Positions 4,652 to 64,000 are shown, numbered from the stretch's first letter. The stretch is DNA of 64,000 nt from Trypanosoma brucei (GCA_000002445.1 CP000066.1:192001-256000), one strand, 5' to 3'. Made by a program: numbers and translations. Notes: a model not told the origin generated them from the sequence alone.

Positions 4652-6107
4652 GCACACTACCTTGTGATCGTCAGCAATGCGGTGACTTCCATGGGGTTAA
4701 AGTTGGTTACAGTTGCACCACAAGCTATTAAGGCAACGAGCGGTAGCCTTTAAATGAATAAAAACAATGATCTCAACACACAGCCGAAGTACTTGGCAGC
4801 ACTCCAGGTAGAATGGTTACTTCGCCACAACTTCATTCGATGCACATATTTCTAAGTGTATAGACAGTTCTTTCCTCTCTTTTCCCCTCCCAGAGTGGGT
4901 GGAGTGTGCTGTTACAGCTCCAGCCACTTTCCTACACCCGCCATTATACAGTGGCCATACAAGCCATTCGCTGAAGCGGGTCGCTTTCAAAATGTGGACC
5001 GCGGGAGAATGCAATGACGGTCCGTCACAAATAATGAAGGTCGCAACAAATGATAATAATAAAAATAATAGACGGGTACTGCGGAAGAATACAAAAATAG
5101 CACTAAAAGAACAGAGGGTTGCACACAGAGGCTAAAGTAACGACCAAGGCGGGTCAAACAAATGGGAAGAGTAACGGGTGAACGAGCAACTTACATACAT
5201 TTGCCACCTGACTAATATGAAGGACTAATGTAAGTAGATTCACTTTCTGTGGAAAGTACTTGCGATCTTCGGTGCCCTTTAACTCCTGTCCTACTACTGG
5301 AGTTTGGTACAAACTTGGGGTTATTTACTTCTTTGTTTGTTCTTTTTTTTTTTAATATGATCACTAACACAAAAGCAGGAAACGGCATGGATATCGAACA
5401 TCGTACATTTACAAGATGATTTTTACTATTAGCATACGGGTCGTTCTGTGTTACCCAATGCAACAACTTTTCTCGTTGCATGACCCAATTTCCCCAACTT
5501 ACCCATTCCTCTTTCGCACCCTAGGCATCGTGTCCGTGACACACAGCAATAACCACCACCTTTTCTCCGGACTGAGTTAAAGCAAAAAATAATTATGACA
5601 GCAAAACCCATTTTTTTTTTTTACAAATAATCACATATGATGCAGGGGATAGAATTAGCTAAACCCCCTTTAAAAAAAAAAATAGCATTAAAAAAAACTG
5701 TCGGCCAACACCTGGAAACATGAAGAACATGGGAATACAGTGCCCATACGTATTTAGAAAAGTTATTGAAGAACAACCTTCTGTTGCTTAACGATACCAA
5801 TATCATGTACAAAAAATAAAATAAGCAAATACAATTGCTGAGTATAGGGATAACACTTACGTTGACAATGTGCGCTAATGCCGCCTTTCCGAATTTAAGA
5901 GATTGCTGTGATTACATCGCCTATACGTTGGCTGTCGCCTCGCACGTCCGAACAAGCTTCAGCAAGAAAAGAAAGTTCTCCTGTACTCCACCTTGCAATC
6001 AACCTCCCCATCAGTCATTCACAGCGATAAGTGAATTACAGTTTTTTCCCCCGTGTCTTGACTTTTTCCATATTGAATCGACGACAGTCGAAGGGAACCA
6101 ACAATGG

Positions 6108-8372: not shown

Positions 8373-8696
8373 GACGAAAAAGTCCCAATGTGCAAAAAAA
8401 AAGGTTATATATGTACAGATATATACTTTTCCCTACTGTGAACCTGACTCGCTAAACCTTGGTGCAAGAAAAGAAGGAACACGACTGTGTGAGCCACTTC
8501 GGTCAACGGGTAAGAGAATTGAGTATTTTTTTTCCATCATTTTCTTCGAGGAGCAAAGTTACGGTAGGGTGCCAACGCCAAAACAACCATCCTTCACAAA
8601 ATGCTAACGGTAAACGCCTGCTAACTACAGTTGGCTGATGCTGCAAAAATGTCTTCTCGCCCTTCATGAAATGTTGGAGTTTCACTGACGCGCGAA

Positions 8697-8708
8697 CCCC
8701 CCCCCCCC
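8697..8708. repeat. C12 homopolymer, which is G12 on the minus (sense) strand of the left unit.
   Basis: Read directly from the sequence. It lies between the 754-aa gene and ACP. Confidence 0.9.
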
Positions 8709-9448
8709 TCCTCCTCAGGCATGTAGAACTTGGCAACTACCATCAGCCAGTGGTGACCTCCCAAACAATATAACCAATATCGTGCGCAGCACTACAATCA
8801 CAAAGAAAACTTCTCCAAACATCCGGAATGCATAAAGCATGGTAAGATCTGCAGCTCTGATAGCTAACTCTCAACCAGGTTTCCCCCAGGAGCTGCCCGT
8901 AACAGTTGTTTTGCTCAGCGAAGAAAAAGGTGCTCAAACAATTCACACGCAAAAAACATAATAACACTCATCGATGTGATCAATCACCATAGCATATGTC
9001 TGTGGAGTTCTTATGGGGAACAAACACACCTTCACACATTTGATTTTTTCGCTAAGGAAGGAGCACTAAGAGAATAGCGATACGACGGTAAATATTTCTA
9101 GGGAATGAGCCCACAAGAAAGTATTGGTGGAACTCCTCCAAGAACATCGTACAGTTTCTCAAGAAATAGATAACCCGAACACCAGGGGGGAAAACGTTCA
9201 CAAAAAAAAAGACCTCTTCACCCAACGTACGACGTTTGCATGATCCTACCCCCTTCATTTCCTTAAGTTAGTGATGTGCACGGTAATATTTACTGCCGAA
9301 GTGATAATCATTCATCCACCATAAATTACTTTCTGCAATCACTCACAACCAACGTTTACACCCTTCATTACAACCTTTTCCTCCATGTTGTTATGGGCGC
9401 GCGTTTAGCGCCTATTACGACATCCCTAACTAGTATCATGAACAGCTC

Positions 9449-9895: not shown

Positions 9896-12195
9896 CGTCG
9901 AGCACCTTCTTACAAAAACGATTTTGTAAACAATAAAAAAGCAGGAAAAGTGTAACAACACAGAAGCAATCGCTATAGCAGAGAAAGTTCACTCATCACA
10001 CAACCACGCTGAATGAGGGGATCAATTACAACTTACAAACAAAAGATGGAATCCGAAACGACAGTCGTCAAAATGTCTTGCAACAAACCGTACAGTACGG
10101 TTATCATAGGACTTTCGTTAATGTAGTGGTGTGCAGACATGTTCGAAAACAAAGAAGTAACCGAGTGACAGGTGGACGATAAAACAAAAAGTACTTAACA
10201 TTCATATGTTTAATTTTTCAACGTACTAGACACCCGATCCTCCTTTTCCCTGACACGGAAATACGCCCCACCTCCAACTCCTACGCATAGCCGAGCAACA
10301 CAACTCATTACAATACGAGAACCGAAGATCAGACGTTAACACAACGTATAGGTAAACGCTGCATAAAAATTTAACCTCACAATTGCCTTCCACCATTGGG
10401 AAGATAGGGAAGATGAGAGGGTAAACTTGAGAAAAGAGAGAAAGTTTTCAGAACCATACAGCGAGGAGCACATTTAGAACAAGCTGCAGAAACAGAATTA
10501 TTATCATCAGCACGCGGAACAGTGGCTAGAATTCCCCTTTGTTCATTTCCAAATAAACTGTAATGACAAAAATGAACCACGTATATCACGTTTCCATTAG
10601 AAGTATCACGGTGTTGAATAGTCGACCGCAACACCAAAATAATAACGATATTGATAAGAAGTGTTATAAAATCGAGCAAAGGATAAAAGAACACCCCAAG
10701 TGATTCACTCAGGGACAATTCGCCAAAGCAGCCGCGCTGCAAACCAAAGCCCTTCGCCGGCACCTGATATTCATCCTATCATGTACCACACCTACCCCCA
10801 AAAAGGTAAAGAAGCAAACTCTAGTAAAGAAGCAGGCAGCTATCCACCAAAACAGATTAAAGCCAACCGCGGCAATCAATTCAACGAAGTGACGGCAAAA
10901 ATACCACCCTCAGGTTCCATAATGCGCTCACCCCAAAACCTGATAACACCTCAAATGTAATTTAACAATTGCCACAGCACAACAACAATGCTCTTTCAAC
11001 ATACGTTCCGAAGACTCCTCCCTTCGGTTTCAACTGACAGGCACTGAAGGACATTCACAACTCTGCTTGTGTTGTGCATATTATCGGCGAAAACATAATT
11101 GTTTACATCAACGCTAACAAGAAGAGAATATGAGAACAAAAGTCAGCCAATACAACACGGTTAATAAGAAGAACATAACATGTTATAGCTTCATTACGGC
11201 ATATCCCCTTACTAATCACTACAATAGCAGAGAGCTCGGTAGCTGTGACAGAGTGGAAACGAAAATGAAAAAGAAAATCAATTTGAAAACAAACAAAATT
11301 CCAAAGTGTGCCCCGACGAGGAATCGTATGAAACGCATCCGCCCCATGCTGAGGGGGATATCTCTCTTTGCACGAAAAAAGGTTAATACTGATCCGGTTT
11401 CGGAGAAGGACAACAAGGCATTTGTGTGGCACGTGACAGCAATATGGAAAAAAGAGAACGGATAACATCAAATACAAACGGTGTTCTGTTGTGAGCATTG
11501 ACAGCCCTCTTCAAAAGTTTTTGTTGCAGTGGACGGGCGACCGGTCCGCACATGAAGTGGCAAAACGTTGGAACACGATTACCTGGTCGTGATGCAGTGT
11601 TGTACTTCGTGACGGAACCGCAGCGGCTGGTTGCGCGACGGAAAATCTTCAATCTTGGAGGGAATGCGCCAAATCATTTTGCGTAAGGAACTCCATCCAA
11701 GGATCGCGGACATACAAGAAACCCCACACACCCCAGCTGTCACATGCCCCGCAAAATATTTGGGGAGGTGGAGCACTGTCGGGTCGCAAACTTTCGCATC
11801 GACCGGAGCGACCGCCGCCCGTTCGTTTACTCTTCAAGGAAACCGGAGCAGCATTTGCAGGGAAACGGGGTGATATTCAAACCCCTTTTACCCAGAGCGT
11901 AATAACAAGTTGGGCGGCTCGGGTAAAGCACGGAGGCACACCGATAGAAAAGACACCCTGCGACAAACAGTAGTGCATCAAAGCACAAGAGAATTAAAAT
12001 GTAAAACGGGATCCGAATAGCTCAAGCGAATGGGTTGCCGGCATGGCATGGCCGCCAACAGCTGGGGATACTCGAAATTGGAGACCACGCACCGACGGCT
12101 GCGGTCTCGAAACTTTACCGTCCTGGTGCTTTACGGGCCGTAGCCTCCTTTGGATGATTTCGGAACCACAAAGGAAACAAATTGCCCCAGTGGTC

Positions 12196-12208
12196 AAAAA
12201 AAAAAAAA
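12196..12208. repeat. A13 homopolymer inside the strand-switch region.
   Basis: Read directly from the sequence. Confidence 0.9.
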
Positions 12209-12654
12209 GTAGTACTTGACAAGCTGTGGAGCGCACTAGGGGAGCGACGGAGCTTCGCCTTCCCCCCGTATCAAAATGTTTGAAGGGAGGAAGCGGACAG
12301 GAGGGGTACAGGAATCGTAAGAGCCGTATGCCCCAACAGGTAGTAAGTGTTTTTGCAACAGTGTATTACGGAATGGGTTTTAATATAATTGCGGCTGGGG
12401 CGGTTGAATGTATACTCATTTTGCTGAGAGGAAAGCTTCACAGTGAGGTAGGTGTAGGGAGAAGGGCGTGCCAAAGGCAGCTGGTTATTGTAGAGCGCTT
12501 CTGGTAGCGGAGCTGGTTCCAGAGCCTATCTATTGCCAACGCCGCCTCAGGAAACCTGAGGAGTAAATAGCGTCTCCAAAAATGCAAAAAGGGGGAAATG
12601 TTTGCAAAACAGGAATGTGAGATGGCACACCAAGTGCCATGTACGGGGTCCTTC

Positions 12655-12680
12655 TTTTTTTTTTTTTGGGGGGGGGGGGG
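12655..12680. repeat. T13 followed by G13 (C13A13 on the minus strand), at the centre of the strand-switch region.
   Basis: Read directly from the sequence: cttc(t)13(g)13cagcgc. Confidence 0.9.
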
Positions 12681-13731
12681 CAGCGCTACTTTTCTGAACT
12701 GAAAGATCTACGGACACCGTGTGTGGCAATGTTAGGGTGCGGCGGCTCCCCGGTAAGGTTGACGCTCCCCAAAATGAGAGGCGTGGTTGCTGCTCCAGCT
12801 CCTAACATGGGGAAGAAGGAATTTGACATGTAAATTTCTGACCTACCGCAGTTTGTTGTATGCTTCAGGTGTGGGGAGTTAAGTAAGCACTGGTGCAAAC
12901 TTGTGCCTTACCGGTGTTGCTGCTGCATCGACGCTAGTAGTGGTAGTGGACTGTGGAGCATTCGAGCAACCGGGTGGGGGGTAGCGGTGGTAGGAGTTTT
13001 GTTTCTTCTGTGGTTCGGACCCGACGGTGTGTCGTTGCCTCGTTCAAATGTGTGGCGGGTTGTGGTTCATAATAGGAATATGCGGGCTGAGTGGGCGGCG
13101 GAACTGGATGCAGCGGTGGCCGCCGCATTGGCCGTGGTGCGTGCAGTTGTGGTAGTTCAGTGGGCTGTGTATCAGATTTGGTGTTTTAGTGGACAGGGTA
13201 TGTTGCGCCAGTGGTACCGGACGGTGGAGGCGTTTTTTTTTTGTCACTCTGCAATTGTTTTGCAGTACAGCTGGAAATGGCACTCTCGCATCTGCGCTTT
13301 TGTATTTTATTTCTGGACTTTTTTTGATGCATCAACTCTGCGCGAAGGGAGGTTTGTGGAATTGCGTTTTTTTGTGTGTGTATTCTTTCTTGCTTGTGCC
13401 ACTGTTTGCTTTATTGGGCTGATATAGAAAATACGAATATACGTAGTGTTGGTCGGTGCCGCATTGACCAACGTTCCTTTGATGATATTATCACTCTGCC
13501 GCTGCCTCCTGAAAGCGTGCTACCATGCAACTGTGCGATTGCTTTTATATTCAAGGGCGGAAAAGGCTTTAATGATAAAACAAATCAGTGATGCTGAGCA
13601 GCGTTGTTTTTAGAAGCGAGATGAAACATGGTGTATATGTGTAAGTGACTATGAGAAGGGAGAAGTTGGTGCGTACCAAATTTTATTATATTACTCTCAC
13701 TTCGACCCGATATATTTTGTCTATTTGTTTA

Positions 13732-13748
13732 ATATATATATATATATA
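13732..13748. repeat. (AT)n microsatellite.
   Basis: Read directly from the sequence. Confidence 0.9.
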
Positions 13749-14218
13749 ATGCTCTCACAGTTCGATACATTTGTCGCACCTCCTAAATGGTTTCTAAGAG
13801 GCGGTGCTTCCGAGGGGTCAAGGCTGATGTCGATTACCTAGCAGCTGGTGTTATTGATGGTGATTTCTTTGTATGTGTCGAGCACTTACTTAAAGCTGCG
13901 CCTCAGTTATCAACTTCAGTAAATAAATGTTATAAAGCAGTGATCATTTTAAAGGTGCTCCTGTCTTTGGTGGACGAAATTTGTGTGGGTTTTATTTTGG
14001 GAGTTGCAAGTTGGGTATATGTGGTTATTTCGTGTCATATTTTTTTTTTAAAACTTAAGGAATAGTTAGTTTTTTTGTTTCCCTTTCGTCTCGTGGTTTC
14101 GATACGTCGCAGTACATATCTCTACTCCTTTTATCATCTTTTGTTTCTCCTAAGAATTAAGAAAGAACCTTTTTTCACTGCGTGTGTGTTCACATTTCCC
14201 CTCTAAGAAGCACAAGAC

Positions 14219-25341: not shown

Positions 25342-28300
25342 ATGAAGGCAGTTCAGAGGGTGTGCTCTGATGCGCGGCACTTGTACGTGTTTGGACGCGT
25401 TAAAGACTTTTTTGCCTGCGGTGATGCTGAGGTCACGGAACGTCTGACTATTCAACTCGATCAAAATTTCTCTGATGGCTCCCCCAACTTTATGGTTGTG
25501 CACGACATGCTCGAGGGGTGCGGGGCTAACACGCTGCTCTTCACCTTTCAGCCAAATCCTGACGACCCGGGGATTCCCGATGATGTCCTTTGTGTTGTGA
25601 ATCCGCAGAAAGGGAAGTTGCCGTACCTCACCGGCCGTGTGGTGTATTTGGTGCGGCCAGACAATGGCAAACCTATCAACGCAAAGGAGGCATCTCAGGT
25701 TGTTCAGGATATCACGATGGGTTCTCTCGATGGCAACCTATTGCAAAGCTTCGAACACCTCCTGATGGAAGTGTATACACCTATGTTCAACAAGCTGAGC
25801 AAATGGGGGAAGAATACTTTGGCGGAGCGGAATAGGTTTATTGTGCACCTCCTCCGATATGCGGATCGCATTTCAGAGTTACAACAACTACAGGGTGAGC
25901 GTTATGAACTGCGACCTGTTAATGCGGAGACGTGGAGGCTGCTACAAACAGGGGGCCTGAACAAGCGCGGTGGAATCAACGACCCTGGTGTTGTGCACTG
26001 CCTGACGACAACCGTGGAGGAATGGATTAAGGCTGTCTATGACGTGGTGCAGGAGGTGCCAAACTATGAAAATGAACTGAGTGAAGAGAAGGCAGGTCCA
26101 AAGACGGAGATTCAGCTTTGGAAAAGCCGCCTGGCGAAGTTGCGCCTGGTAGAAGAACAACTTGAAGCTGTTGAGGCGCCGCGAGCCGTGCAATACCTGC
26201 GTGAGGTTAAGAGCCCACTGCTACAACGATGGGTGGAGGTGGATGCCGCGCTTAATGATGCATTGTCGGAAGCTCAGGAGAACGTGAAGTACCTGCGTTC
26301 CCTCAGCAAATACTTTGATGTATTATACTCATCGGACATTGCCCAGATCATTAACATGCTTCCTTCGCTCATCAGCAACATACGGATGATGCACACGATA
26401 GCACGCTATTACTCGCGGCGGGAATGCATGACAGCACTCTTTTTTAAGGTCACCAACGCCATGGTTCTTTCTTGTAAATCAGCCATCAACCCATCGGGTG
26501 TGCGCAGTCGTATCTGGGAGTGCGGGCAGAGCCCCGAGTCCCTCAAAGAGTTGTTACACCAACTACACCTCAGTGCCGAGTGTAATAAGGCCTACAACAA
26601 AGAGTACAAGAAGGCGCAGGAAATCCTCGCAAGCAAGGATGGAAAACAGTTTGACTTTGATGAGTTGAAGTTTATGGGGCACTTCAATCTTTTCACAAAG
26701 CGTGTGGACAAACTGATCAGCGTGTTTAGTACAGTGCAGCAATTTGTAGAGCTCAAGGCATACAATATTGAACAAATGGAGGGCCTTATCCCACGGTTTG
26801 AAGAATACCTTGGCCATCTCCGCGGAAAGACTACCGACATCCTTGACATCCACGACAACAACAAGTTCGACGTGGAGTTTAAAATATTCGAAACACGAAT
26901 TGCCGAACTAGAGACATCGATGCAGGTGGCAATCAACTCCTCATTTGAGAACATCACCTCGACCGACAACGCTCTGCAGTTACTGGCCAAGTATCAGCGT
27001 ATTCTCAAGAATGAAGCTTTCGCCGCCGATTTGGAGTCCAAGTACCTCGTCATTTTCCACAGCTACGGTATGGAACTTGAGAATGACCAAAAGACCTATG
27101 AGCGATACAAGACCGACCCACCAGTCGCACGAAACATGACACCAGTTGCTGGAGCCATCAGTTGGGCACGGCAACTACTCCACCACATCAAGTCGCCTAT
27201 GGACAAATTTAAGACCAATCGCACAATCATGGCGAACACGAAAGATAGCAAGAAGGTGATTCGCACATACAATAGAGTTTCGGTTGCGCTGATTGAATTC
27301 GAGGCTATTTGGGTGGATGCTTGGAAGCGATCGATTGAATCGAGTAAAGCCGGACTTAATGCGACGTTGTTGGTGAGACACGAGGGGCGTTTGTACGTAA
27401 ACTTTGATTTGGAGATAATGCAGCTCATTAAGGAGACAAGAGAGTTGATGTTACTCGGTGGTATAGAAGTACCTGCGGCAGCGAGGATGGTGCTAATGCA
27501 GGAGCAGCGACTGAAGACATTTTACAATGAGTTAACTCACCTTGTTAAAGAGTACGAACGTGTTGTTGGTCGCGCTGGAAGTACGCGCAGCAAGATCGTT
27601 GGTGTCACTCGCCCGTTGCTTCAACCAAACCTCGACGCGCTTGATGCAGTGTTTCTTCCTGGTGAAACCACTCTCACGTGGTCTTCGTTAAATGTTGATA
27701 CGTACCTGGAACGAGTCCAAAAGGCAATTGAAGATCTTGACATTCTCGTCACGAAGGTGAATGACATCATTCAGCACCGAATCCAAGTTAACCTCAAGCT
27801 TATTGCTTCTACGCTGCTTGTTAACCTCTTTGACGACCATTTCTCACTTGATCAGTTCGTGCAAGTGCAGGAAAAGCATATTCGGCAGCAATGCGAAGTG
27901 ATGGATGTAAAGAACCGGGAGGTTGAGGGTGCGGTCGAGGATGTCGTGATATGCATTCTCGCTAGTCAGGGCGTTACTTACAGTACCGATAAGCTTGACA
28001 ATGTCCAGCGTGATCGCATTGCGACGCTCAAAGGGCACTTCAATCGTCTAATGTTCAAAGCGATCCTCACGAGCACCACCCGATCGTTGAACTTACTCAA
28101 GAAACGTGTGGGCACACGTAATCGTGTGTCCTTCCTTTTTGTTGAAAAGCCCTTCTTCGACGTTGATGTGCAACTTATTAATGCGGAGCCGTACGTGTTT
28201 TTAAGCCCTTCCCTTGATGAGGTGCAAAAGGCTATCAACCAGTGTGCAACGGCGGTACTTTCGTGCAGCAAATACATGACCCTTTGGGAGGGACTGGGCG

Positions 28301-31300
28301 ATGATGCGCTTTCGTTCTTTGAGGAGATTGCGAAAAACAAAGAGATTGTGAAGGTTGTTCTACTGCTTACTGGTGGCATCCACGGCTTAAAGAAGCAGGT
28401 AATGGAGTACCTTAACCACTTCCACAAGTACGAGTATCTGTGGAAGTTGGACATGAACGAAGCTTATGATGAATTCAACTCAAACGACCCAACACTTGAC
28501 GACTACGAGCAACGTTTACAAGGTTACGTGGCGTTGCATGATGAAATTGAGGGGCTCACGTCTGTGTTCAACATCGGCAGTCTGGCACTGCACAACAAGC
28601 CCCTTAAGGCCGATCTTCTTCGGAAAGTCATCGAGTGGAAGGAGCTCTTTTCCAACAAGTTGCACGCCAAAGCACAATTGGAACTAGACAGCTTAACACA
28701 CAAAATGGATGAGGAGGCGCATCAGCTCTCGTTACCCATCCCTGATCAGGAGAAGCTGGAGGACTTGCGCGTTCTGATGAACACTCTGCAGGACATCCGT
28801 GATAGGGAGTCACTGGTGGAGTTCCAGTTTTACCCCGTGCAACAGGCATATGCATTGTTGCAGCGCTTCAACGTTCCTATTTTCAAGGAGGAAATCGACC
28901 GTGTGGAGGATATTCGGTTCAAGTGGCGCAAACTACATGCGCTGGCAGAGCGACGCTCAGACGAGATCAACAATCTTCAGTACGGTTTTAAGAAAGGTCT
29001 TACGCAGGAGGTGCAGAAATTTGGTGCCGAAGTCATTGCTTTCCGTAACGATTATGACTCCCATGGACCGATGGTAGAGGGTTTGAAACCTCAAGAAGCT
29101 ATGGAGCGTCTAAAGCGTTACCAACGCCAGTTTGATGACAAGTACCGTAAGTGGATTACCCTTATGGCAGGTGAGGAACTCTTCGGTCTTCCCCTGCACA
29201 AATACCCGGAATTAGTTAAAACAAAGAAGGAGCTTGAGCTCCTCGACAAGTTATACACGTTGTACATTAATGTGCTTCATAAGGTTGACGGGTACAATGA
29301 TATTTTGTGGTGTGAGTTAGATTTCGATGCCATCGCGGAGGAAGTGAGTGTATTTGTGAGCCAGTGTAAGCGTTTGCCCAAGTCGTTGCGGGATTGGGAC
29401 GCGTATGTCGAACTTAAGAAAATTCTTGACGACTTCATGGAACTCCAGCCTGTGATTCAGGAGTTGAAGAATCCCGCAGTGGTTGAGCGGCACTGGCAGG
29501 AGATCATGCGTGTAACGGGACATAAGTGGCGAACCGATCCTGATCTGTTTAAACTTCAGAACCTTGTGGACGCGAACTTACTTCGCGTGGTGGATGAAGT
29601 CGTTGATATTGCGAGTTCATCCGTACGCGAGTCTGAAGTCGAGGCGAAATTTCGGGCGCAAGAGGTGTTGTGGAAGGATCAGGAACTGAAGTTCTCAGAG
29701 TTTAAGCATCGTGGACCTATCATATTAAAGGGTGATGATACAACGTCTAAGCGCGAGGCCTTGGATGAGTCATCGCTGGCCATTAACTCCATGCTATCGT
29801 CTCGTTATTGTGCTTTCATGCGCGATACCATACAAGGTTTCCTTCAAAAGTTAGTGAAGGTGAGTGAGATCATAGCCCTGTGGGTTGAGGTGCAGTTTAC
29901 ATGGCAGTACCTTGAAGCGGTGTTTGCAGGTGGTGACATCATGAAGCAGTTGCCCCAGGAGGCCAAACGGTTTGCGATGATCGATAAGGCATGGCAGAAA
30001 ATTATGAACAAGGCCAATGAGACACCCAATGTTCTTGAGTTCTGCTACGAAAACGAGCTACTCCAGAACCTTCCAAACCTGAAGGAGCAGTTGGATGAGT
30101 GTCAGCGGAAACTCTCTCTGTATCTGGAGCAGAAGCGTAATTTGTTTCCACGATTCTACTTTGTTTCTGATACGGTGCTGTTGGAAATCCTGTCTCAGGC
30201 GAGCGACCCGCAATCCATTCAGCCACATTTGGCATCGATCTTTGACGGTCTCTCATCTGTGCGGTTCGAGCGTGTGAAACCCAAGGAAGCAGGGGCGCAG
30301 CCGTACTTCCAAATTGTTGAGATGATTTCTGGTGAGGGAGAGTCACTCATGATGCGAGAACCTACACCGTGCGTAGGTAATGTGGAGGATTGGCTAAACC
30401 GTCTGTGTAGTGGTATGACTGACACTGTGAGAGAAGTGGTGAAGGCGAGTGTTATGGAGTTGGGTACACTGTTGGGAAATACGAATTACTTGGGAAGCAT
30501 TATCGAGCGTTACCCGGCACAGGTTTCCCTTCTCATGCTGCAGTTTTTCTGGACGGCCGACGTGACGGAGTGTATTACAAAGGGTATTATGAGATCCCGT
30601 GGGCGCGAAGCAGCAACATCACGAGCTAAGTGCGATGCAGTGAAGAACTTTCTTGTTAGTCTAACGACGTCACCTGAACTTGAGCGGCAGCCTAAGCGTA
30701 TGCGTACCAATGTGGAGACTCTCATTACGATTCAAGTGCATCAGCAGGAGGTGTTTATTGATTTGCAGAAGGCCTCCATTAAGGAGCTCACACATTTCGA
30801 TTGGCTGAAACAAGCCCGTTTCTACTACAAGCCAGAGCGTGACCTTACCATTATTTCAATTGCTGATTCTGACACAGAGTACTGCAACGAGTACTTGGGA
30901 GTTAAGGAGCGTTTGGTCATCACCCCGCTGACAGATCGCTGCTACATCACGTTGTCGCAGGCGCTCGCTATGTACATGGGCGGTGCCCCGGCTGGACCTG
31001 CAGGTACAGGTAAAACCGAAACTACAAAGGATCTCGCCCGTACATATGGCAAGTTTTGCGTCGTCTTCAATTGCTCAGATCAGCTGGACAGGCATGCGAT
31101 GGGGAAAATTATACGCGGTCTTTCCCAGGCTAATGCGTGGGGTTGTTTTGATGAGTTCAACCGTATCGACCTTCCCGTCCTCTCCGTCGTTGCGCAGCAA
31201 GTTTCTTGTGTGCTTCAGGCACTTAAGCAGCACAAAGACAAGTTCATCTTTATCGATGGGCAGGTCACCGACCTGATGCCCGGGGTTGGATTCTTCATTA

Positions 31301-34300
31301 CCATGAACCCTGGTTACGCAGGACGACAGGAGCTGCCGGAGAACCTGAAAATTCTTTTCCGTGGTGTTACGATGATGATCCCTGACCGTCAGACCATTAT
31401 GAAGGTCAAGTTGGCCTCACAAGGGTACAGTCTCGATGACCTGTTGAGTAAAAAGTTTTTCACATTGTATAAGCTCTGCGAAGAGCAGTTGTCGAAACAG
31501 CGGCACTACGACTTTGGTCTCCGTAACATTTTATCTGTGCTGCGTACAGCCGGTGCGGTGCTGCGTCGCAATCCAGGTAAGGATGAGGAGGATCTTTTCA
31601 TGCGCACGCTGCGCGACATGAACCTCTCCAAATTGGTGTTTGAAGATATAGAGTTGTTTGACTCGTTATTACGCGATATGTTCCCTGGACGACAGTTTGT
31701 TAAGGGCTCGCATCCTGAGATTGAGGGAGAGTTAGCGAAGGTGATCGAGGGAAAAGGTTTGCAGCTATGGGGACCATGGATAAGCAAGGTGTTGCAGTTG
31801 TACGAAACAAAGTTGGTGCGTCACGGTATTATGGTAGTTGGGCCTGCTATGTGTGGCAAAACACAGTGTTACGACGTCATGACGGAAACGCTTAGTCGCA
31901 CGACGGTGCCTCATCAGCAGTTGCGTATGAATCCGAAGGCCATTACGGCACCGCAGATGTTTGGTCGCATCGATGTCTCGGGAGACTGGCATGATGGCGT
32001 TTTCTCATCTCTCTGGCGCGCTGCCGTTCGCCACGCAAAGAAGCGTAACGTGTGGATTGTGTGCGATGGACCAGTCGATGCAATTTGGATTGAGAATCTT
32101 AACACAGTTCTTGACGATAACAAGTTGCTTACGTTAGCTAACGGGGATCGTATTCAAATGACTGACACGATGAAGTGCTGCTTCGAAGTTGAGAACTTGG
32201 CAAATGCCTCCCCTGCTACTGTATCCCGAGCCGGTATTATTTTTATCTCTGATGTTATTCTGGGGTGGAAGCCGGTGCTCAAGTCACGTTTCTGCGCCAC
32301 TGTGAATGAGGAGGGGCAGATCCTACCAGTTGATGTTGTGAAGAGGTGCAACACACTCCTTGCAGAAAAATTGCTTGCCTTGTTCCTCCCCACGGAGGGA
32401 GAAGGCGGCGAGCCAAGTTTGACAGAACGGGTAGCGACATTCTACGAAAAGGAGTGCAGCATCGTTATGAAGACATCTATTGCTCACCTTGTAATTAATG
32501 CCTTCCATCTCACAGTTGCTCTTGGAGAAGAGGTGGGCGACGGTGTGCCCGTTAGTGACGCGCTGGCACTGAAGATATTCTGGTTCAGTCTGTCATGGGC
32601 ATTCGGTGGTGTCCTTGAGTCGAAGGACCGGTTGAAATTTGATGCCCTGGTGCGTGAGCTCTACGACGGCTTACCTCCATCGACAGAAGGCACGGTATTC
32701 GACTTTTCGCTGAACTGCAAGAGTGGTCAGTGGGAGCACTGGGATGGGTTCTTAGAGAAGTGGAAGTACCCTGGCGATGACAGACTGGACTTCGCCACTT
32801 TGTTCATTCCCACAGCTGATTCTGTGCGACTGCACTTCCTTATGAACTGCAACTTTATACAGCACCGACCAGCTTTGTTGATTGGTGTGAGTGGTACGGC
32901 TAAAACGGTAACAGTTGAGAAGTTATTACTGAAGATCAAAGCTGAGTCTGAAACGTCGAACTTCCGTAAGCTCAACTTTTCGTCCATGACGACTCCCCAA
33001 AACTTCTACAATGCCCTTGAGGACATGACGGAGAAGCGTATGGGTTCTACCTTCGGTCCGAAGAACTGCGAGCAACTGACGGTCTTCATTGATGACATCA
33101 ACATGCCGGAGATCAATGAGTGGGGCGACCAGATTACAAATGAGATTGTGCGCCAGGTGGTGGAGTCTAGCATGGTTTATGATCTAAGTCATGCTGGTCG
33201 GCGGAAGGAGTTGCGCGGCCTTGTTTATATGGCTGCCATGTCGCACCCATCTGGTGGCAAGAACGATATCCCCAATCGTTTGAAGCGCCACTTCTCGATC
33301 TTCAACGTGCCACTTCCAGAGGAGAGTTCTGTACAGCAGATTTTCGGTGTCATTTTTGAAGGTCGATTCTGCAATGACAACTATGCGCGCAGTGTGCAGG
33401 ACATCGCTAAGATGCTCACACAAATGTCGATCGATTTCTGGCGCGCGATAGCGAAAAAGATGTTACCAACACCCGACAAGTTCCACTACTTCTTCAACTT
33501 GCGCGATTTGTCGCGTATTACACAGGGTATTATGATGGCTGGTATGAACGATGACCCCGAGAAACCCGAGAGAAGGTCCACAAGCAAACCGTGGGAAGTC
33601 GTAACGGACGCTGTAACGCTTATCAGGATTTGGAAGCATGAATGCTCTCGTGTTTTCAGCGACAAGCTCAATAGCGTGGCGGACAAGCGGTGGTTCGATG
33701 ACAACGTGCAAGACTGTGTCGTGCAGCACCTCACGCCAACACAATACCGAGATGTCATCGAGCAAGTGCGTGAGCCCATTTATATGGCAAATTACCTGCG
33801 GGACCCCATTATTGATCCTGAAACTGGTGAGATTGCAGAGACTGCTCCTCGCATTTACGAGCCAGCACCATCGATGGAGGTCCTCCAGGATCGCTTGCTA
33901 CGTGCTATGAAGGCTCACGACGAGCAGCCCCGTGTGAAGCAGCTGAAGCTCGTCTTGTTCGAAGCTGCTGTGAAGAATGTTTCCCGTATTTCTCGTGTCC
34001 TGTCGATGCCGCGAGGTAACTTATTGCTGGTTGGTGTTGGTGGTAGTGGCAAACAGTCGCTGACCCGTCTTGCTGCACATGTGAATTCCCATGACTACGC
34101 CACGTTGGTTTTGTCCAAGGGGTTTGGTGTCAACCAACTCTTCGATGCCATTCGTGAGCAATACGTTATGGCAGCGACGAAACGCCCAGTGACTATGCTA
34201 TTCACTGATAATGACATCAAGCATGAGATATTCTTGGAGTATATCAACTCCTTCTTGTCAAATGGTGAAATTCCCGGTCTGTTTGCATCCGATCAGCGCG

Positions 34301-37300
34301 ATTCAGCGATTAACGACATTCGCCCCGTCATGAAAAAAGACCCTTTCGTCAAGTTTGAAGATATGAACGAGACCTTGTGGAAGTACTTCATTAACCGTGT
34401 TCGTGAAAGATTGCACTTTGTGTTATGCTTCTCGCCGGTGGGAGATAAGTTCCGTACACGTGCGCGCAAGTTCCCGGCCCTTGTGTCTTCGTGTATCATC
34501 AACTGGTTCTTCCCGTGGCCAAAGCAGGCCTTACTCGATGTCTCATTCCGAACGCTGAAAAATTTTGAAATGGCGACCGAAGATAAGAATAAAAAAGCGT
34601 TGGTGGAGCTTATGGCAGAGATCCATTCCCTCATGCTTGAGAAATCTGAGGAATACCTTGCGCGGTACCGACGGTCGGTATACAGCACACCGAAGTCCTA
34701 CCTTGGCTTTATTGAGTCTTACACGAATGTTTACACAAAGAAGTTTAATGAACTCAATGAGGATGCCAGCAAAATTAACAAGGGTTTGCAGAAGTTACAC
34801 CAAGCAGGTGAGGATGTGCGAGTGATGAGGAAGCAACTTCAGGAGAAGGAAGGTTTGCTGCAGAGCAAACGAAAGGAGACGGACGCGCTGGTCAAGGAAA
34901 TTGAAATTCGTACCGCTGAGGCTGAGAAGAAACGGATGGAGGTGGAGGTCGTGAAGGAGAGTGTTGCACGGGACGCTGCCGTTGTCGCACAGGGTGAGGC
35001 TGAAGCTAAGAAGGACCTTGAGGCGGCTGAACCAGCCCTGCTGGAGGCCATAGAATCACTTAATTCTATCACATCCAATGATTTCACCACATTGAAGAAG
35101 TTGGCGAACCCTCCGGCGCTGATTAAACGTATTTTTGATGCTGTCTCAGTGTTGCTTCATAGGCCATTGATGGTCCCAGGTGCGGAGGAGGTGAAGGGTG
35201 CACTGTGGATTACAGACTCATGGGAGTTTAGCGGAAGACAACTTGCGTCTGATTCGTCCACGCTTGACGTTCTACGGTCATTTGGTGAAAATCAGAAGGA
35301 TTTCATTAATGAGGAGACATGCGAGTTGCTGTTACCGTATTTATGGATGGATGACTTCACGCAGGAGCGTGCGCGTAAGGCCTCCGGTAACATTGCTGGT
35401 CTCTGTACATGGGTGCGCAGTATGTACAAGTACATCAACATCGCCAAGATTGTTGCGCCGAAGAGGGAGAAATTGCGTATTGCGACAATTAAACTGCGTG
35501 TGGCAAACAAAAAGAAGGAAGAGCAAGAGGAAGAACTTGCCCGTGTGACTGCTGAAGTTGATCGCTACAACCAGCAACTTTCAGAGGAGAACGCAAAGAA
35601 GCAGGCCCTTGAGGACGATGCTACACGCACAAAACAGCGTATGGATAGCGCTAACGGTCTCATCGATGCTCTCTCCGGTGAACGTGAAAGGTGGACGCAG
35701 CAAAGCAATGACTTCAAGTCACTGATCGAGCGTCTTGTTGGTGATGTTGCCCTCAGCTGCGCTTTTATTTCTTACTGTGGTCCCTTCAACTCAGAGTTCA
35801 GGCACCAGTTGCTATATAAGAATTTCTACGTCAAGTGTAAAGATCTGAAGATCCCCGTGACATCCGACATCAACGTTGTGAAGTTTCTTGTAGACGAGAC
35901 AACTATTGCAGACTGGCAGCTTGAAGGACTACCAGCAGATGATCACTCTGTGCAGAATGCCATCATGATCACAACGAGTGCCAAGTTCCCCCTGATGATT
36001 GACCCCCAGGGACAGGCGCTGAATTGGATCCGCAAGCGTACCGAGCGTATGCAAGGAAAACTCTGCCAGTTGAGTGATCGTACGTTCGCAATGCACCTGC
36101 AGGAACAGCTTGATCTGGGTTTGCCACTCATTGCAGAGAACGTCCCCGAAGAAATTGACCCGATGATTGATCCCGTGCTGGAGAAGCAGGTCGTACGAAG
36201 TGGCAAGTCTTTAATCATCCGTGTCAACGGTGAGGAAATGAGCTACAATGAAAACTTCAGCTTCTTTCTTACGACGAAGTTGCCCAATCCCAGTTTTACG
36301 CCAGAAATGTTTGCCAAGAGTCTTGTCATTGACTTCACAGTGACGATGGAGGGTTTGGAACAGCAGCTGCTGTCGCATGTGATTGGCCGCGAAAAGGGAG
36401 AACTGAACGAGGAGAGTGCCAAACTTTCCGAAGACATCAACAGCAATGAGAAGCGCCGTAAGAATCTTGAGGATCGTCTTTTGAAGCAGTTGAGTGAGTC
36501 CCAGGGTAACCTTATCGATGACGTTGTGCTCATCCAGACCCTCCAGGAGACGAAGGATGCAACAGCAGAGATTGCAGAAAAACTTGCCACAGCACTTGAG
36601 ACACGGAAGCGTATTGCCGGGGCGTGCGAGGAGTACAGACCGGTTGCAACACGCGGTGCGGTGCTGTACTTCCTCGTCGTTGAGATGTCGTTGGTCAACC
36701 ACATGTATCAGACGTCTCTCGTACAGTTCGACGGCATTTTCGACGGTTCCATCCAGCGCTCAGAGCCGCACCCCGTCACAGCGAAGCGTATTCAATGTAT
36801 CATTGACTACCTTACCATGGCTGTGTTCAAATACATTATTCGTATGCTCTTTTCGTCGCACAAGCTGCTTTTCGTACTGCTCATGGCATGTAAAATTCAA
36901 ATGAAGGTTGGGCAGTTGGACGCCACCTCGTTTGACGTCTTCCTCAAGGGCGGGGGTGCCATGCAAGTGGACCGCTCAAAGCCATTTGCTTGGATTAAAG
37001 ATAAGATGTGGGCGAATATCCTTGCCATGTCGGAACAATTACCGCGGTCGTTCAAGCAGCTTCCCGATCTCATAACCCGCAGTGAACAGGTGTGGCGGCA
37101 GTACATAGAGTCAGACAACATTGAGAACTTACCAGTGCCTGATATAAACGAAAAGCTCGACAGCTTTGAGCGACTTCTCATTGTGCGTGCCCTTCGTGAG
37201 GATCGTGCTATGCTTGCTGCTAATCTTTACGTGGCCCGTACGCTCGGCAAGGAGTTCTCTGAAGCGCAGCAGCTCGATCTACAGGGCGTGGTAGAGGAAA

Positions 37301-39261
37301 CAAGCGGCCTGACACCTATTGTCTTCCTTCTCTCTCAGGGTTCTGATCCGACGACTCTTATTGAGGCAACCGCAAAGTCGCTTAAGAAGAAGATATTTCC
37401 TATTTCAATGGGACAAGGTCAGGAAGAGGCGGCGATGAATATTGTGTCTGGCGCGTGGCACAACGGTGACTGGGCCCTACTGCAGAACTGCCACCTTGGT
37501 CTACCCTTCCTCCTGCAGCTCGAAGAAAGACTTCGTCAACAACATTTGCCCGGGGAAAAGAAGGCTGATATCCACGAGGAAGCGCGCCTGTGGGTGACAT
37601 CGGAACCACACAAGTTATTCCCCATTGGACTGCTGCAGATGTCGATAAAGCTGACGAACGAGCCACCGCAGGGTATTAAAGCAGGTCTTGTCCGTACATA
37701 CTCATGGATGTCGCAGGATTATCTTGAGATGTTCCGCCGCCCCGAGTGGCGTCCGATGCTTTTCACCCAGTGTTTCCTGCATTCCGTTGTGGTGGAGCGG
37801 CGTAAGTTTGGACCCATTGGTTTCAGTGTGCCATATGAATTCAACCAAGGTGACTGGAACGCTTCCGTGCAGTTCCTCATCAATCACATGACGACCATCG
37901 GTGAAGCCCTGAAGAATCCGGTTAATCGTGACACCGTGTGCTATATGGTTTCGGATATTCAGTACGGTGGACGTATTACAGACAATAACGATCGTGCTCT
38001 CTTCAAGGCCATCACTGAGTTCTTGTACGACTTACGCATTACAAACCCGGAGAGGTCGCGCGATATGAAAATAGCCAACGACACTAAGGTCCCTCTCAAT
38101 GTCATGACCTCTACAGGGGGTCTTCACAACCCATACCCGTGCGAGATCACGGAGTTCGCACCTGGGTACGGTATACCTCTGTTCGATGACATTAACAAGC
38201 ACAGGGAATTCATTCGCGACACGTACCCCGATGTGGACACGACAGAAGTGTTCCAGATGCATTCCAATGCTGATATCACGTACCGTACACGGCAAGCGCA
38301 GGAGGCGCTGAAGACGATTTTGGATATTCAACCAAGAGACGCCGTAGCCAGAGGTGGTGTCACCCGTGAAGAGAAGGTTTTGTCGATGGCGGATAATTTC
38401 CTGCGGCAGCTTCCAGCCAACTGGGTTGTAGACCGCAAGCTTCATTTGGCTGATAAGCAACCACTATCCATCTTTGCAGGACAAGAAATTGATCGCTTGA
38501 GCGTCACCGTTCGTACAATCCGGCAAACGTGCACGAACCTCAAGCTTGCTGTTGCCGGAACCATTATTCTCACTCCTGCGCTTCAGGACGCATTGGATTA
38601 TTTGTATGCCGCACGTGTGCCACCGTCATGGGTTGCTGTGGGATGGCCATCACCTAACATTTCGCTCTGGTTCGCTGAGGTACTCCGCCGTTACGAACAG
38701 CTTGATGGTTGGGCCCGCAACGGTCGGCCACCCGTCTACTGGCTGCCAGGATTCTTCAACCCACAAGGTTTCCTCACCTCCGTGCGGCAAGAAATTACAC
38801 GTAGCCACGCAAACGAAGCGGTGCCATGGGCACTCGATAAGGTGGAAACACGGACGGAGGTTCGCTCGTCCGAGTACCGACCTGGTCAGGAACCGAAGGC
38901 GGAAGATCTGAAGACGGAGCGAGGTGAAGTTGTCATTCATGGACTCTTCCTCGAGGGGGCTATGTGGGATAAAGCGAATAAGCGGCTGAAGGATCCACCG
39001 CCAGGTGATCTGTTCCGTGAATTGCCCATGTTGCTCATTTCCGCTATCAATAAAGATGCACCGCCGCCGCACATGAATGCACCGATGAAACCTGGACAGT
39101 TGAAGGAGAGGCAGAAGAAGCAGGAATATTACCGTTGCCCCGTTTATAAGTATCCCACACGGTCTGATTTACACTGGATATTTGACGTGAACCTCCCCGT
39201 GGCTGAGGACGACGCTTATTGGCGTATGCGTGGCGTGTCACTGTTGGGGTGCACCGACTAA
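25342..39261 (+). CDS. Dynein heavy chain. Its size and architecture fit an axonemal or cytoplasmic-type DHC. The class is not resolved from sequence alone.
   Basis: A 4,639-aa ORF with an ATG start. Four AAA+ Walker-A loops are present: [10 protein letters not shown] (AAA1, nt about 30994, aa about 1885), GPAMCGKTQ (AAA2), GVSGTAKTV (AAA3) and GVGGSGKQS (AAA4). The coiled-coil stalk region is K/E-rich (around nt 34.8–35.7 kb). A conserved C-terminal domain is present. Confidence 0.97.
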
Positions 39262-62952: not shown

Positions 62953-62963
62953 GGGGGGGGGGG
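62953..62963. repeat. G11 homopolymer on the plus (sense) strand.
   Basis: Read directly from the sequence. Confidence 0.9.
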
Positions 62964-63815: not shown

Positions 63816-63827
63816 GGGGGGGGGGGG
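63816..63827. repeat. G12 homopolymer on the plus (sense) strand, preceded by a T-rich tract.
   Basis: Read directly from the sequence. Confidence 0.9.
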
Positions 63828-64000
63828 ATTCGCGTTCGGTCCGCGCGACCATTTGGGATGATCTTAACACGGTATCGTATACTATTTTGCCATCTTTTTT
63901 TTTTTTCTGAGATGAGGCTGAAACACTTGCCCCATCACTTGGAAACTGAAATAGCAATGGCGAACGACATGCGACGTGAATGCCCACTGTATTGTAGCGG

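What the first reader, a model, noticed from the sequence alone, without database searches (positions are those of the whole stretch)
12196..12680. A T13G13 tract and an A13 tract lie exactly at the composition switch point
Within 500 nt there is an A13 run (12196-12208) and a contiguous T13G13 block (12655-12680, which reads C13A13 on the other strand). G-runs on the sense strand have been noted as the only recurrent motif at trypanosome divergent start regions. A contiguous 13-nt oligo(dG) next to an oligo(dT) is also a strong nucleosome-excluding and replication-slippage-prone structure. It may mark the boundary between the two divergent initiation zones.
Basis: partly seen in the sequence, partly recalled or inferred. 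Interest (0 to 1): 0.5.

Follow-up and report, generated by a model that had tools for sequence, protein, structure and literature searches.

The report
Known G/T tracts at trypanosome promoter
The A13 and T13G13 runs are real and lie in the centre of a divergent transcription start region on Trypanosoma brucei chromosome 3, but they are an ordinary example of the sense-strand G and T runs already described at the start of trypanosome gene arrays.

Summary
A13 is at 12196-12208 and T13G13 at 12655-12680. The window is T. brucei TREU927 chr3 192001-256000. The tracts lie in the 4.3-kb divergent strand-switch region between ACP (Tb927.3.860, minus) and an SLBP-domain gene (Tb927.3.870, plus), both listed as first genes of divergent pol II units.

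The composition switch is staggered. G-C flips near 11222, GT-AC near 12276 (between the tracts) and T-A near 12633 (22 nt before T13).

T13G13 matches a published rule. In Wedel 2017, GGGGGGGGGG is the top coding-strand 10mer at the 5' end of T. brucei start regions, and T-run/G-run junction 10mers are also listed. Synthetic GT-rich elements with such junctions drive directional transcription and are nucleosome-depleted. A13 reads as T13 on the minus sense strand.

The tracts are present but length-polymorphic in T. b. gambiense and T. equiperdum. That conservation says little, because the region differs by only 2%. The syntenic regions of T. cruzi, T. rangeli, T. theileri and T. vivax keep the layout of poly(dA), a GC-rich core, then poly(dT), but have no G run longer than 7. 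G/C runs elsewhere in the window change between strains.

Verdict: a member of a known motif class, not a specific boundary element. Interest is low.

The parts
12668..12680 (+). G13 on the coding strand of the plus-strand unit (Tb927.3.870 onward). It is the longest G/C run in the window. Chromosome position Tb927_03_v4:204668-204680.
   Evidence: G10 is the top coding-strand 10mer in the 5' fifth of T. brucei start regions. Length varies: G13 in TREU927, A+G10 in DAL972, G11 in OVI.
12655..12667 (+). T13 directly abutting G13 on the coding strand of the plus unit. The cumulative T-A skew minimum (12633) lies 22 nt upstream.
   Evidence: T-run/G-run junction 10mers are on the Wedel list of coding-strand-enriched 10mers. 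T13/T15/T13 in the three assemblies.
12196..12208 (-). A13 on the plus strand, which reads as T13 on the coding strand of the minus-strand unit (Tb927.3.860 onward). Chromosome position Tb927_03_v4:204196-204208.
   Evidence: A13/A15/A13 in the three assemblies. It forms a trivial 21-nt, 90% inverted repeat with the T13 region.
12209..12654 (.). 446-bp spacer between the tracts, GC about 0.49-0.50. It holds the GT-AC cumulative minimum (12276). It is no more conserved than the rest of the region: 11 variable sites, 2.5%.
12600..13400 (+). GT-rich block on the plus coding strand, up to about 70% G+T. T13G13 sits at its 5' edge. Inferred dispersed promoter zone of the plus unit.
   Evidence: Interpretation by analogy with Wedel 2017.
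10200..11400 (-). Block that is AC-rich on the plus strand, so GT-rich on the minus coding strand. Inferred dispersed promoter zone of the minus unit.
11400..12600 (.). Central zone with little skew and raised GC (0.47-0.54). It corresponds to the GC-rich cores seen in the orthologous regions of other trypanosomatids.
9896..14218 (.). Whole divergent strand-switch region between the ACP start codon (9895, minus) and the SLBP-domain gene start codon (14219, plus). Major splice acceptor sites are at 9908 and 14155.
   Evidence: Kolev 2010 supplement, offset +192000.
8697..8708 (-). C12, which reads as G12 on the minus coding strand. It lies inside the novel transcript Tb3.NT.12 (window 9064 to 8569), about 3.5 kb from the centre of the region.
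   Evidence: C10 in DAL972 and C11 in OVI.
62953..62963 (+). G11 in the 3' UTR of Tb927.3.1030, the last gene of the plus unit, about 105 nt before its poly(A) site.
   Evidence: G7 in Lister 427 and DAL972, G10 in OVI.
63816..63827 (+). G12 on the coding strand, in the intergenic region that Kolev 2010 lists as an internal start site (before Tb927.3.1040). A T12 run lies 68 nt downstream.
   Evidence: G11 in Lister 427, DAL972 and OVI.

Best explanation
T13G13 is one instance of the coding-strand oligo(dG)/oligo(dT) tracts that characterise the 5' end of RNA polymerase II transcription start regions in T. brucei, the 'GT-rich dispersed promoter'. A13 is the equivalent oligo(dT) on the coding strand of the opposite unit.

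Shown here: the tracts lie in an experimentally listed divergent start region. G and T are on the sense strand of the downstream unit. T13G13 sits at the 5' edge of an 800-bp GT-rich block, where the AT skew flips.

Inferred from published experiments at other loci: rigid homopolymer duplexes disfavour nucleosomes and keep the centre of the region open. GT-rich sequence on one strand favours initiation in that direction and deposition of H2A.Z downstream. The effect is additive and compositional, not that of a discrete, indispensable site.

The tracts arise and change length by replication slippage, against a background of transcription-linked strand asymmetry. Individual tracts therefore turn over while the overall architecture persists.
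For: Locus identity and start-region status.

Strand and position relative to skews.

Published rule (Wedel 2017 Dataset EV1): GGGGGGGGGG occurs 132 times on the coding strand in the 5' fifth of start regions, against 17 on the non-coding strand and 7-27 in the other fifths. TTTTTTTGGG is 7 vs 1, TTTTGGGGGG 6 vs 0 and TTTGGGGGGG 6 vs 0. The synthetic promoters contain T-run/G-run junctions.

Published experiments: synthetic GT-rich elements drive orientation-dependent transcription and H2A.Z deposition. [quoted passage not shown]

Oligo(dG.dC) runs longer than 7 bp are strikingly absent from T. brucei nucleosomes.

In this window all four G/C runs of 10 nt or more have G on the sense strand and lie within 4 kb of the two listed unit starts. 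This gives P about 0.015 on position and about 0.001 with strand, but the test is post hoc.

The layout of poly(dA), GC-rich core and poly(dT) recurs in the syntenic region of T. cruzi, T. theileri, T. rangeli and T. vivax. It also recurs in the L. major ACP region, which has a different neighbouring gene.
Against: No start-site, H2A.Z or MNase data were examined for this locus, so function here is by analogy.

The start-region limits, and so 'the 5' fifth', could not be defined.

No G run longer than 7 exists in the orthologous regions of four other Trypanosoma species.

The tracts are length-variable, and G13 is interrupted in DAL972.

Other G/C runs in the window vary between 7 and 11 nt or are gained or lost between strains. 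Lister 427 has a C10, which is an antisense G10, in a 3' UTR.

The minus-strand unit has no G run near the centre.

In L. major such tracts are peppered through the genome and are absent from about half of start sites.

Synthetic GT elements reach levels 11.6-fold below endogenous pol II expression.
Confidence: 0.7

Rival explanations
1. Neutral by-product. The tracts are microsatellite-like outcomes of replication slippage on strand-asymmetric, unconstrained DNA, and the particular runs have no function. Only the bulk skew matters, or nothing does.
For: Length polymorphism in every long run compared, and indels concentrated in homopolymers. G11/G7 and C3TC4/C10 differences between strains. 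No conservation of the G run beyond the T. brucei group. The spacer and flanks are no more conserved than the 2.1% average of the region. In L. major, G-tracts are peppered through the genome and judged not sufficient.
Against: Genome-wide, G10 is about 8-fold enriched on the coding over the non-coding strand, specifically in the 5' fifth of start regions. GT-rich elements containing such runs have promoter and chromatin activity. A mutational origin does not exclude an effect on chromatin.
Confidence: 0.22
2. Replication origin signature. The A13 ... T13 pair, 446 bp apart, marks an initiation site of DNA replication of the kind mapped by stranded SNS-seq, where replication starts between poly(dA)-rich and poly(dT)-rich sequence.
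For: In Stanojcic 2026, 37% of origins but only 9% of intergenic controls have 8 or more A upstream and 8 or more T downstream within 0.5 kb of the centre. Origin centres are nucleosome-poor. The geometry here fits.
Against: The same paper finds start, termination and head-to-tail regions not enriched in these origins; only 3.7% of origins lie there. It reports G with A upstream and C with T downstream, whereas here G13 follows T13 and G-C skew is positive on both sides. The A-then-T arrangement is also what two divergent units with sense-strand T bias produce, in every species examined.
Confidence: 0.06
3. Non-B DNA element. G13 on the non-template strand promotes an R-loop or a G-quadruplex during transcription, and that structure, not nucleosome exclusion, is what acts on initiation. 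For a G-quadruplex, G13 could act with the GGGG at 12645-12648, or intermolecularly, or as a DNA:RNA hybrid.
For: G4 ChIP-seq signal is reported as enriched at T. brucei start sites, with expression changes under a G4 ligand. R-loops are linked to transcription initiation in T. brucei (paper title and abstract, PMC6753483). The G run is on the sense strand, the orientation that favours R-loops; this last point is established knowledge, not tested here.
Against: G13 alone cannot supply four G3 tracts with loops, which needs at least 15 nt. The nearest extra G tract needs a 19-nt loop (sequence). No G4 or DRIP data were examined at this locus. This reading overlaps with the best explanation more than it excludes it.
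Confidence: 0.1
4. RNA-processing signal. T13 is a polypyrimidine tract that directs trans-splicing at the first downstream AG (12682-12683) of a short-lived or non-coding transcript.
For: The sequence T13G13CAG has the form of a polypyrimidine tract followed by AG. Novel spliced non-coding transcripts exist nearby, for example Tb3.NT.12.
Against: The Kolev 2010 splice-site table lists nothing between Tb927.3.860 (201908) and Tb927.3.870 (206155). A 13-nt G run between tract and AG is atypical. No conserved ORF or Rfam family lies downstream.
Confidence: 0.03

Closest known systems
GT-rich dispersed pol II promoters of T. brucei start regions (Wedel et al. 2017, EMBO J, PMC5579346)
   Same: G and T homopolymer stretches on the coding strand at the 5' end of a start region. 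The 10mers GGGGGGGGGG, TTTTTTTGGG, TTTTGGGGGG and TTTGGGGGGG, all contained in T13G13, are on their enriched list. The tract sits at the edge of a GT-rich block in a listed divergent start region.
   Different: Promoter activity, H2A.Z deposition and nucleosome depletion were shown for synthetic elements and one reporter context, not for this locus. The contiguous 13+13 junction is longer than those in the synthetic constructs.
G-tracts (C-tracts) at Leishmania major divergent strand-switch regions (Thomas et al. 2009, BMC Genomics, PMC2679053; from my own knowledge also the chr1 73-bp region of Martinez-Calvillo et al. 2003)
   Same: An uninterrupted G/C tract longer than 10 nt was the only motif recovered at TBP/SNAP50 sites upstream of acetyl-H3 peaks.
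   Different: A different genus. There the tracts were judged neither necessary nor sufficient. The L. major ACP region examined here has only a G7.
Sense-strand G runs at T. brucei strand-switch regions (Siegel et al. 2009, Genes Dev). Recalled from memory; the paper could not be read.
Poly(dA:dT) and poly(dG:dC) nucleosome-excluding promoter tracts of yeast and other eukaryotes (Segal and Widom 2009; Struhl and Segal 2013, as cited)
   Same: Rigid homopolymer duplex creating or widening a nucleosome-depleted region at a promoter without a sequence-specific factor.
   Different: In trypanosomes the tracts are strand-biased relative to transcription and serve polycistronic units. Start regions show only weak nucleosome depletion in one T. 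brucei study.
[quoted passage not shown] 2026, eLife, PMC13179062)
   Same: A run of 8 or more A upstream and 8 or more T downstream within 0.5 kb.
   Different: The G/C polarity is opposite on the T side, and such origins are not enriched at start regions.

Membership tests
Coding-strand G/T tracts of T. brucei pol II start regions (GT-rich promoter, Wedel 2017) | Lies in an experimentally defined pol II transcription start region | tested here: met
   The window maps to Tb927_03_v4 192001-256000. Kolev 2010 Table S14 lists Tb927.3.860 (minus) and Tb927.3.870 (plus) as first genes of divergent units. The tracts lie between their splice sites.
Coding-strand G/T tracts of T. brucei pol II start regions (GT-rich promoter, Wedel 2017) | G and T runs are on the coding strand of the unit they precede | tested here: met
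   T13G13 is on the plus strand upstream of the plus unit. A13 reads as T13 on the minus strand upstream of the minus unit.
Coding-strand G/T tracts of T. brucei pol II start regions (GT-rich promoter, Wedel 2017) | [quoted passage not shown] | tested here: met
   GGGGGGGGGG (132 vs 17 in region 1), TTTTTTTGGG, TTTTGGGGGG and TTTGGGGGGG are all listed and all occur within 12655-12680.
Coding-strand G/T tracts of T. brucei pol II start regions (GT-rich promoter, Wedel 2017) | Located in the 5'-most fifth of the H2A.Z-defined start region | tested here: inconclusive
   H2A.Z limits are not available. The tract is at the 5' edge of the GT-rich block and 22 nt past the T-A skew minimum, which is consistent but indirect.
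Coding-strand G/T tracts of T. brucei pol II start regions (GT-rich promoter, Wedel 2017) | Drives orientation-dependent transcription and H2A.Z deposition, and is nucleosome-depleted | not testable with these tools
   Needs reporter assays or the published TSS-seq, ChIP-seq and MNase-seq tracks at this locus. Only literature for other loci was available.
SNS-seq replication origin (Stanojcic 2026) | At least 8 A upstream and at least 8 T downstream within 0.5 kb of the centre | tested here: met
   A13 and T13 are 446 bp apart.
SNS-seq replication origin (Stanojcic 2026) | G enriched with A upstream, and C enriched with T downstream | tested here: not met
   G13 follows T13, and G-C is positive from 12200 to 13400.
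SNS-seq replication origin (Stanojcic 2026) | Short nascent strand peak at the site | not testable with these tools
   No origin coordinates were accessible. The supplement of Tiengwe 2012 holds none for this site.
Canonical intramolecular G-quadruplex motif (four G3+ tracts, loops 1-7) | Four tracts of at least three G separated by loops of 1-7 nt | tested here: not met
   G13 gives at most three G3 tracts with 1-nt G loops. The nearest further tract (GGGG, 12645-12648) is 19 nt away. Only a long-loop, two-tetrad or intermolecular form is possible.
Conserved cis-element of the ACP/SLBP strand-switch region | Homopolymer pair present at the orthologous position in other Trypanosoma species | tested here: not met
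   Present in T. b. gambiense and T. equiperdum, where the region differs by only 2.1%. T. cruzi, T. theileri, T. rangeli and T. vivax have no G run longer than 7, and nothing is alignable except low-complexity sequence. T. congolense could not be fetched.

The most novel reading that the evidence does not exclude
A13 and T13G13 are not merely part of a compositional background. Together they delimit a roughly 450-bp nucleosome-free core that is the actual shared entry site for pol II (and possibly ORC) of both divergent units. On this reading, slippage-driven changes in tract length (13/15/13 and 13/10/11 in three strains) tune the relative output of the two polycistronic units between strains. 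That would be a heritable, promoter-level control in an organism thought to lack one.
Probability: 0.05. Interest if true: 0.55.

Novelty: already known. Interest (0 to 1): 0.15.

Why it matters
How RNA polymerase II finds the starts of polycistronic units in trypanosomes is only partly understood, and G/T homopolymers are among the few sequence features linked to it. This locus adds a clean, textbook-like example. It has a sense-strand T13G13 at the skew switch, a mirror T13 for the opposite unit, and a composition layout kept across the genus at a syntenic region while the sequence itself is not. It does not add a new principle. Its practical value is as a well-defined site for a deletion or length-variation experiment, because both flanking units and their first splice sites are mapped.

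Tried and rejected
- **RNA genes:** the Rfam scan and the tRNA scan of the whole window found nothing, so no pol III or small-RNA gene explains the region.
- **Bacterial-type promoter and terminator scan:** nothing found, and it is irrelevant for a eukaryote.
- **Retroposon-tail idea:** I asked whether A13 is the poly(A) tail of an inserted element, which could also explain the 4.3-kb size. The region has no copy elsewhere in the window and no flanking direct repeats beyond a 25-nt, 76% chance pair. No T. brucei repeat library was available, so this is weakened but not excluded.
- **Cross-species alignment of the region:** only low-complexity hits.
- **Hidden gene in the region:** the 131-aa ORF annotated in DAL972 (window 11103-11498, minus) has about 4% variable sites against a 2.1% average and no Pfam hit on record. 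The 174-aa ORF at 12903-13427 also has no Pfam hit.
- **Fetching more genomes:** T. congolense proteins and the TREU927 SLBP-domain protein (P0001) are not on record. P0008 (L007) is not the syntenic orthologue (754 aa, matching only 42% of the query), so it gave no orthologous region. The Lister 427 long-read assembly was reached only for the Tb927.3.1030 region. It was not returned for the region studied here via the ankyrin or tubulin genes.
- **Papers not held:** Siegel 2009 and Cordon-Obras 2022.
- **Origin coordinates:** not present in the Tiengwe 2012 supplement.
- **One literature search** on 'poly-G' terms returned only irrelevant papers.

Full report
**Observation.**
The sequence contains A13 at 12196-12208 and a contiguous T13 (12655-12667) plus G13 (12668-12680), exactly as reported. 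Dinucleotide-preserving shuffles of the window expect 0.00 matches to T10G10, 0.05 to G10 and 0.04 to A13. Homopolymers are common in this genome, however. The window has 42 runs of 9 nt or more, four A/T runs of 13 nt or more, and four G/C runs of 10 nt or more. A13 is therefore ordinary. G13 is the longest G/C run, and the direct T-run/G-run junction is unique in the window.

**Where this is.**
Long ORFs run on the minus strand up to 9895 and on the plus strand from 14219.
- The flanking genes are a mitochondrial acyl carrier protein (PP-binding domain) and a protein with an SLBP RNA-binding domain.
- The SLBP-domain protein is 100% identical to a T. brucei brucei TREU927 protein.
- The ACP coding coordinates in the Kolev 2010 supplement (Tb927.3.860, 201895..201449) place the window at Tb927_03_v4 192001-256000.
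- The tracts are therefore at chr3 204196-204208 and 204655-204680.
- Kolev's Table S14, based on 5'-triphosphate RNA, lists three units: Tb927.3.860 to .600 (minus, divergent), Tb927.3.870 to .1030 (plus, divergent) and Tb927.3.1040 onward (plus, internal).
- The major splice acceptor sites of the two first genes map to window 9908 and 14155.
- The finding thus lies inside a 4.3-kb divergent strand-switch region that is an experimentally listed start region. No Rfam family or tRNA is present anywhere in the window.

**Composition switch.**
The switch is staggered.
- The cumulative G-C minimum is at 11222 (flat from 11000 to 11479).
- The GT-AC minimum is at 12276 (flat from 12025 to 12377), between the two tracts.
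- The T-A minimum is at 12633 (flat from 12314 to 12835), 22 nt before T13.
- The region has three parts. A block at about 10200-11400 is AC-rich on the plus strand, so GT-rich on the minus coding strand. A central zone at about 11400-12600 has little skew and raised GC (0.47-0.54). A strongly GT-rich block lies at about 12600-13400 on the plus strand.
- T13G13 sits at the 5' edge of the plus-strand block. A13 lies about 800 bp inside the central zone, not at the edge of the minus-strand block.

**What is known about such tracts.**
- Wedel et al. 2017 searched T. brucei start regions for 10mers at least sixfold more frequent on the coding strand. The 5' fifth held most of them, and most contained long stretches of G or T.
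- In their Dataset EV1, GGGGGGGGGG is the top entry: 132 coding-strand occurrences in region 1, 7-27 in regions 2-5, and 17 on the non-coding strand in region 1. TTTTTTTGGG (7 vs 1), TTTTGGGGGG (6 vs 0) and TTTGGGGGGG (6 vs 0) are also listed. The synthetic promoters contain T-run/G-run junctions.
- Those synthetic GT-rich elements drove orientation-dependent transcription and H2A.Z deposition. [quoted passage not shown] Expression was 11.6-fold below endogenous pol II expression.
- Maree et al. 2017 found oligo(dG.dC) runs longer than 7 bp strikingly absent from T. brucei nucleosomes, and oligo(dA.dT) runs of 7 bp or more at about 70% of expectation.
- For L. major, Thomas et al. 2009 recovered a G-tract longer than 10 nt as the only motif at TBP/SNAP50 sites upstream of acetyl-H3 peaks. 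They stressed that such tracts are peppered through the genome, are absent from almost half of the sites, and are unlikely to be sufficient.

**Evidence inside the window.**
All four G/C runs of 10 nt or more have G on the sense strand and lie near the two listed unit starts.
- G13 is in the divergent region.
- C12 (8697-8708) reads as G12 on the minus sense strand. It lies inside the novel transcript Tb3.NT.12, 3.5 kb from the centre.
- G11 (62953-62963) is in the 3' UTR of the last gene of the plus unit.
- G12 (63816-63827) is in the intergenic region listed as an internal start site.
- With runs placed uniformly in non-coding sequence, all four falling within 4 kb of a unit start has P of about 0.015, or about 0.001 with strand included. 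This is a post hoc test on four events.

**Comparison with other genomes.**
- The tracts are present at the same position in T. b. gambiense DAL972 (A15; T15-A-G10) and in T. equiperdum OVI (A13; T13G11).
- That positional conservation is uninformative. The whole 4.3-kb region shows only 89 variable substitution columns among the three (2.1%). The 446-bp spacer is no better conserved (2.5%). Indels concentrate in homopolymers and microsatellites.
- Synteny of ACP (minus) and the SLBP-domain gene (plus) is kept in T. cruzi (806-bp region), T. rangeli (925 bp) and T. theileri (1378 bp). T. vivax yields a partial region, and L. major a divergent region with a different neighbour.
- All of these show A runs on the left, a GC-rich core, and T runs on the right. 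None has a G run longer than 7, and nothing aligns to T. brucei except low-complexity sequence.
- The architecture is therefore conserved, but the particular homopolymer pair is not.
- G/C runs elsewhere also turn over between strains. G11 at 62953 is G7 in Lister 427 and DAL972. The C3TC4 at 62689-62696 is C10 in Lister 427 and C9 in DAL972, which makes it a sense-strand C run and a counterexample to a strict strand rule. G12 at 63816 is G11 in all three.

**Mechanism.**
- Best-supported reading: T13G13 is one element of the GT-rich dispersed promoter of the plus-strand unit, and A13 is a sense-strand T13 for the minus-strand unit.
- Shown: the location in a listed start region, the strand, the position at the skew switch, and the match to enriched 10mers.
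- Inferred from experiments at other loci: nucleosome exclusion by rigid homopolymers, and directional initiation and H2A.Z deposition favoured by coding-strand GT-richness.
- The tracts most likely arise and drift by slippage on strand-asymmetric DNA. That explains both their polymorphism and the persistence of the layout.
- The main rival is that this particular tract is a neutral by-product. It overlaps with this view, and only an editing experiment can separate the two.

**Other rivals.**
- Replication origin: the A13 ... T13 geometry matches the SNS-seq origin signature, seen in 37% of origins and 9% of controls. However, the G/C polarity is wrong on the T side, such origins are not enriched at start regions, and the same A-then-T arrangement follows from two divergent units.
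- G-quadruplex or R-loop: plausible in orientation, and in line with reports of G4 signal and R-loops at start sites. G13 alone does not meet the canonical four-tract motif. No data for this locus were available.
- Cryptic splice signal: unlikely, because Kolev's table lists no spliced transcript between the two first genes.

**Novelty and verdict.**
This is an instance of a motif class described in kinetoplastids since 2009, and quantified and tested in T. brucei in 2017, in the reference genome on which those analyses were made. It is filed as already known. The 'boundary marker' idea is only partly supported. The tract marks the 5' edge of one GT-rich block. It has no mirror G run, is not conserved beyond the T. 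brucei group, and belongs to a class shown elsewhere to be neither necessary nor sufficient. Interest is low (0.15). The locus would still be a convenient test site, because both flanking units are mapped.

Noticed in passing
window 62292-64000 (chr3 254292-256000); L010-L012: The right end of the window enters the long intergenic region that Kolev 2010 lists as an internal pol II start site (before Tb927.3.1040). It is about 5.5 kb in DAL972. It carries sense-strand G11, G12 and T12 runs. OVI also has a T-run/G11 junction further downstream (L012 14645-14655).
   Followed up: partly
window 62689-62696 and 62953-62963; L010 11475-11484 and 11740-11746: G/C runs are gained, lost or resized between T. 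brucei strains. C3TC4 in TREU927 and OVI is C10 in Lister 427 and C9 in DAL972. G11 in TREU927 is G7 in Lister 427 and DAL972.
   Followed up: yes
window 8569-9064, minus strand: The novel transcript Tb3.NT.12 of Kolev 2010 lies between the ACP gene and Tb927.3.850. It contains the G12 run (C12 on the plus strand, 8697-8708). No ORF of note and no Rfam match.
   Followed up: partly
window 9896-14218 versus L004 7195-8000, L006 7076-8000, L005 6623-8000: The T. brucei ACP/SLBP strand-switch region is 4.3 kb. It is 0.8-1.4 kb in T. cruzi, T. rangeli and T. theileri, although gene order is the same. The extra DNA has no copy elsewhere in the window and no alignable counterpart.
   Followed up: partly
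L004 7540-7690, L005 7380-7530, L006 7440-7520, L009 (reverse complement) around 2200-2600 of the extracted segment: Every orthologous or analogous divergent region has a short, very GC-rich core (up to 70% GC in L. major), flanked by A runs on one side and T runs on the other. The cores do not align with each other.
   Followed up: partly
window 11103-11498, minus strand (L001 8398-8793): The DAL972 annotation calls a 131-aa hypothetical gene inside the strand-switch region. It has no Pfam hit on record and about 4% variable sites among three strains, against 2.1% for the region. It is probably not a gene.
   Followed up: partly
L012 11714-12804 (T. equiperdum OVI); L002 near 5044-5068: The OVI assembly has runs of N directly abutting G/C homopolymers. 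It also has about 1.09 kb of extra sequence with a 211-aa CorA-like ORF downstream of the Tb927.3.1030 orthologue. That sequence is absent from TREU927, DAL972 and Lister 427. It is a possible misassembly or contaminant at a homopolymer break.
   Followed up: no
window 12973-12985 and 13732-13739: DAL972 lacks a 13-bp segment (GGTGGGGGGTAGC) that holds a G6 run inside the GT-rich block. It also lacks four AT repeat units further on. These are further small indels in low-complexity sequence.
   Followed up: no
window 25342-39261, plus strand: A single 4639-aa ORF with dynein heavy chain domains, according to the Pfam hits listed for the DAL972 and OVI orthologues. It is an ordinary gene and unrelated to the finding.
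   Followed up: no
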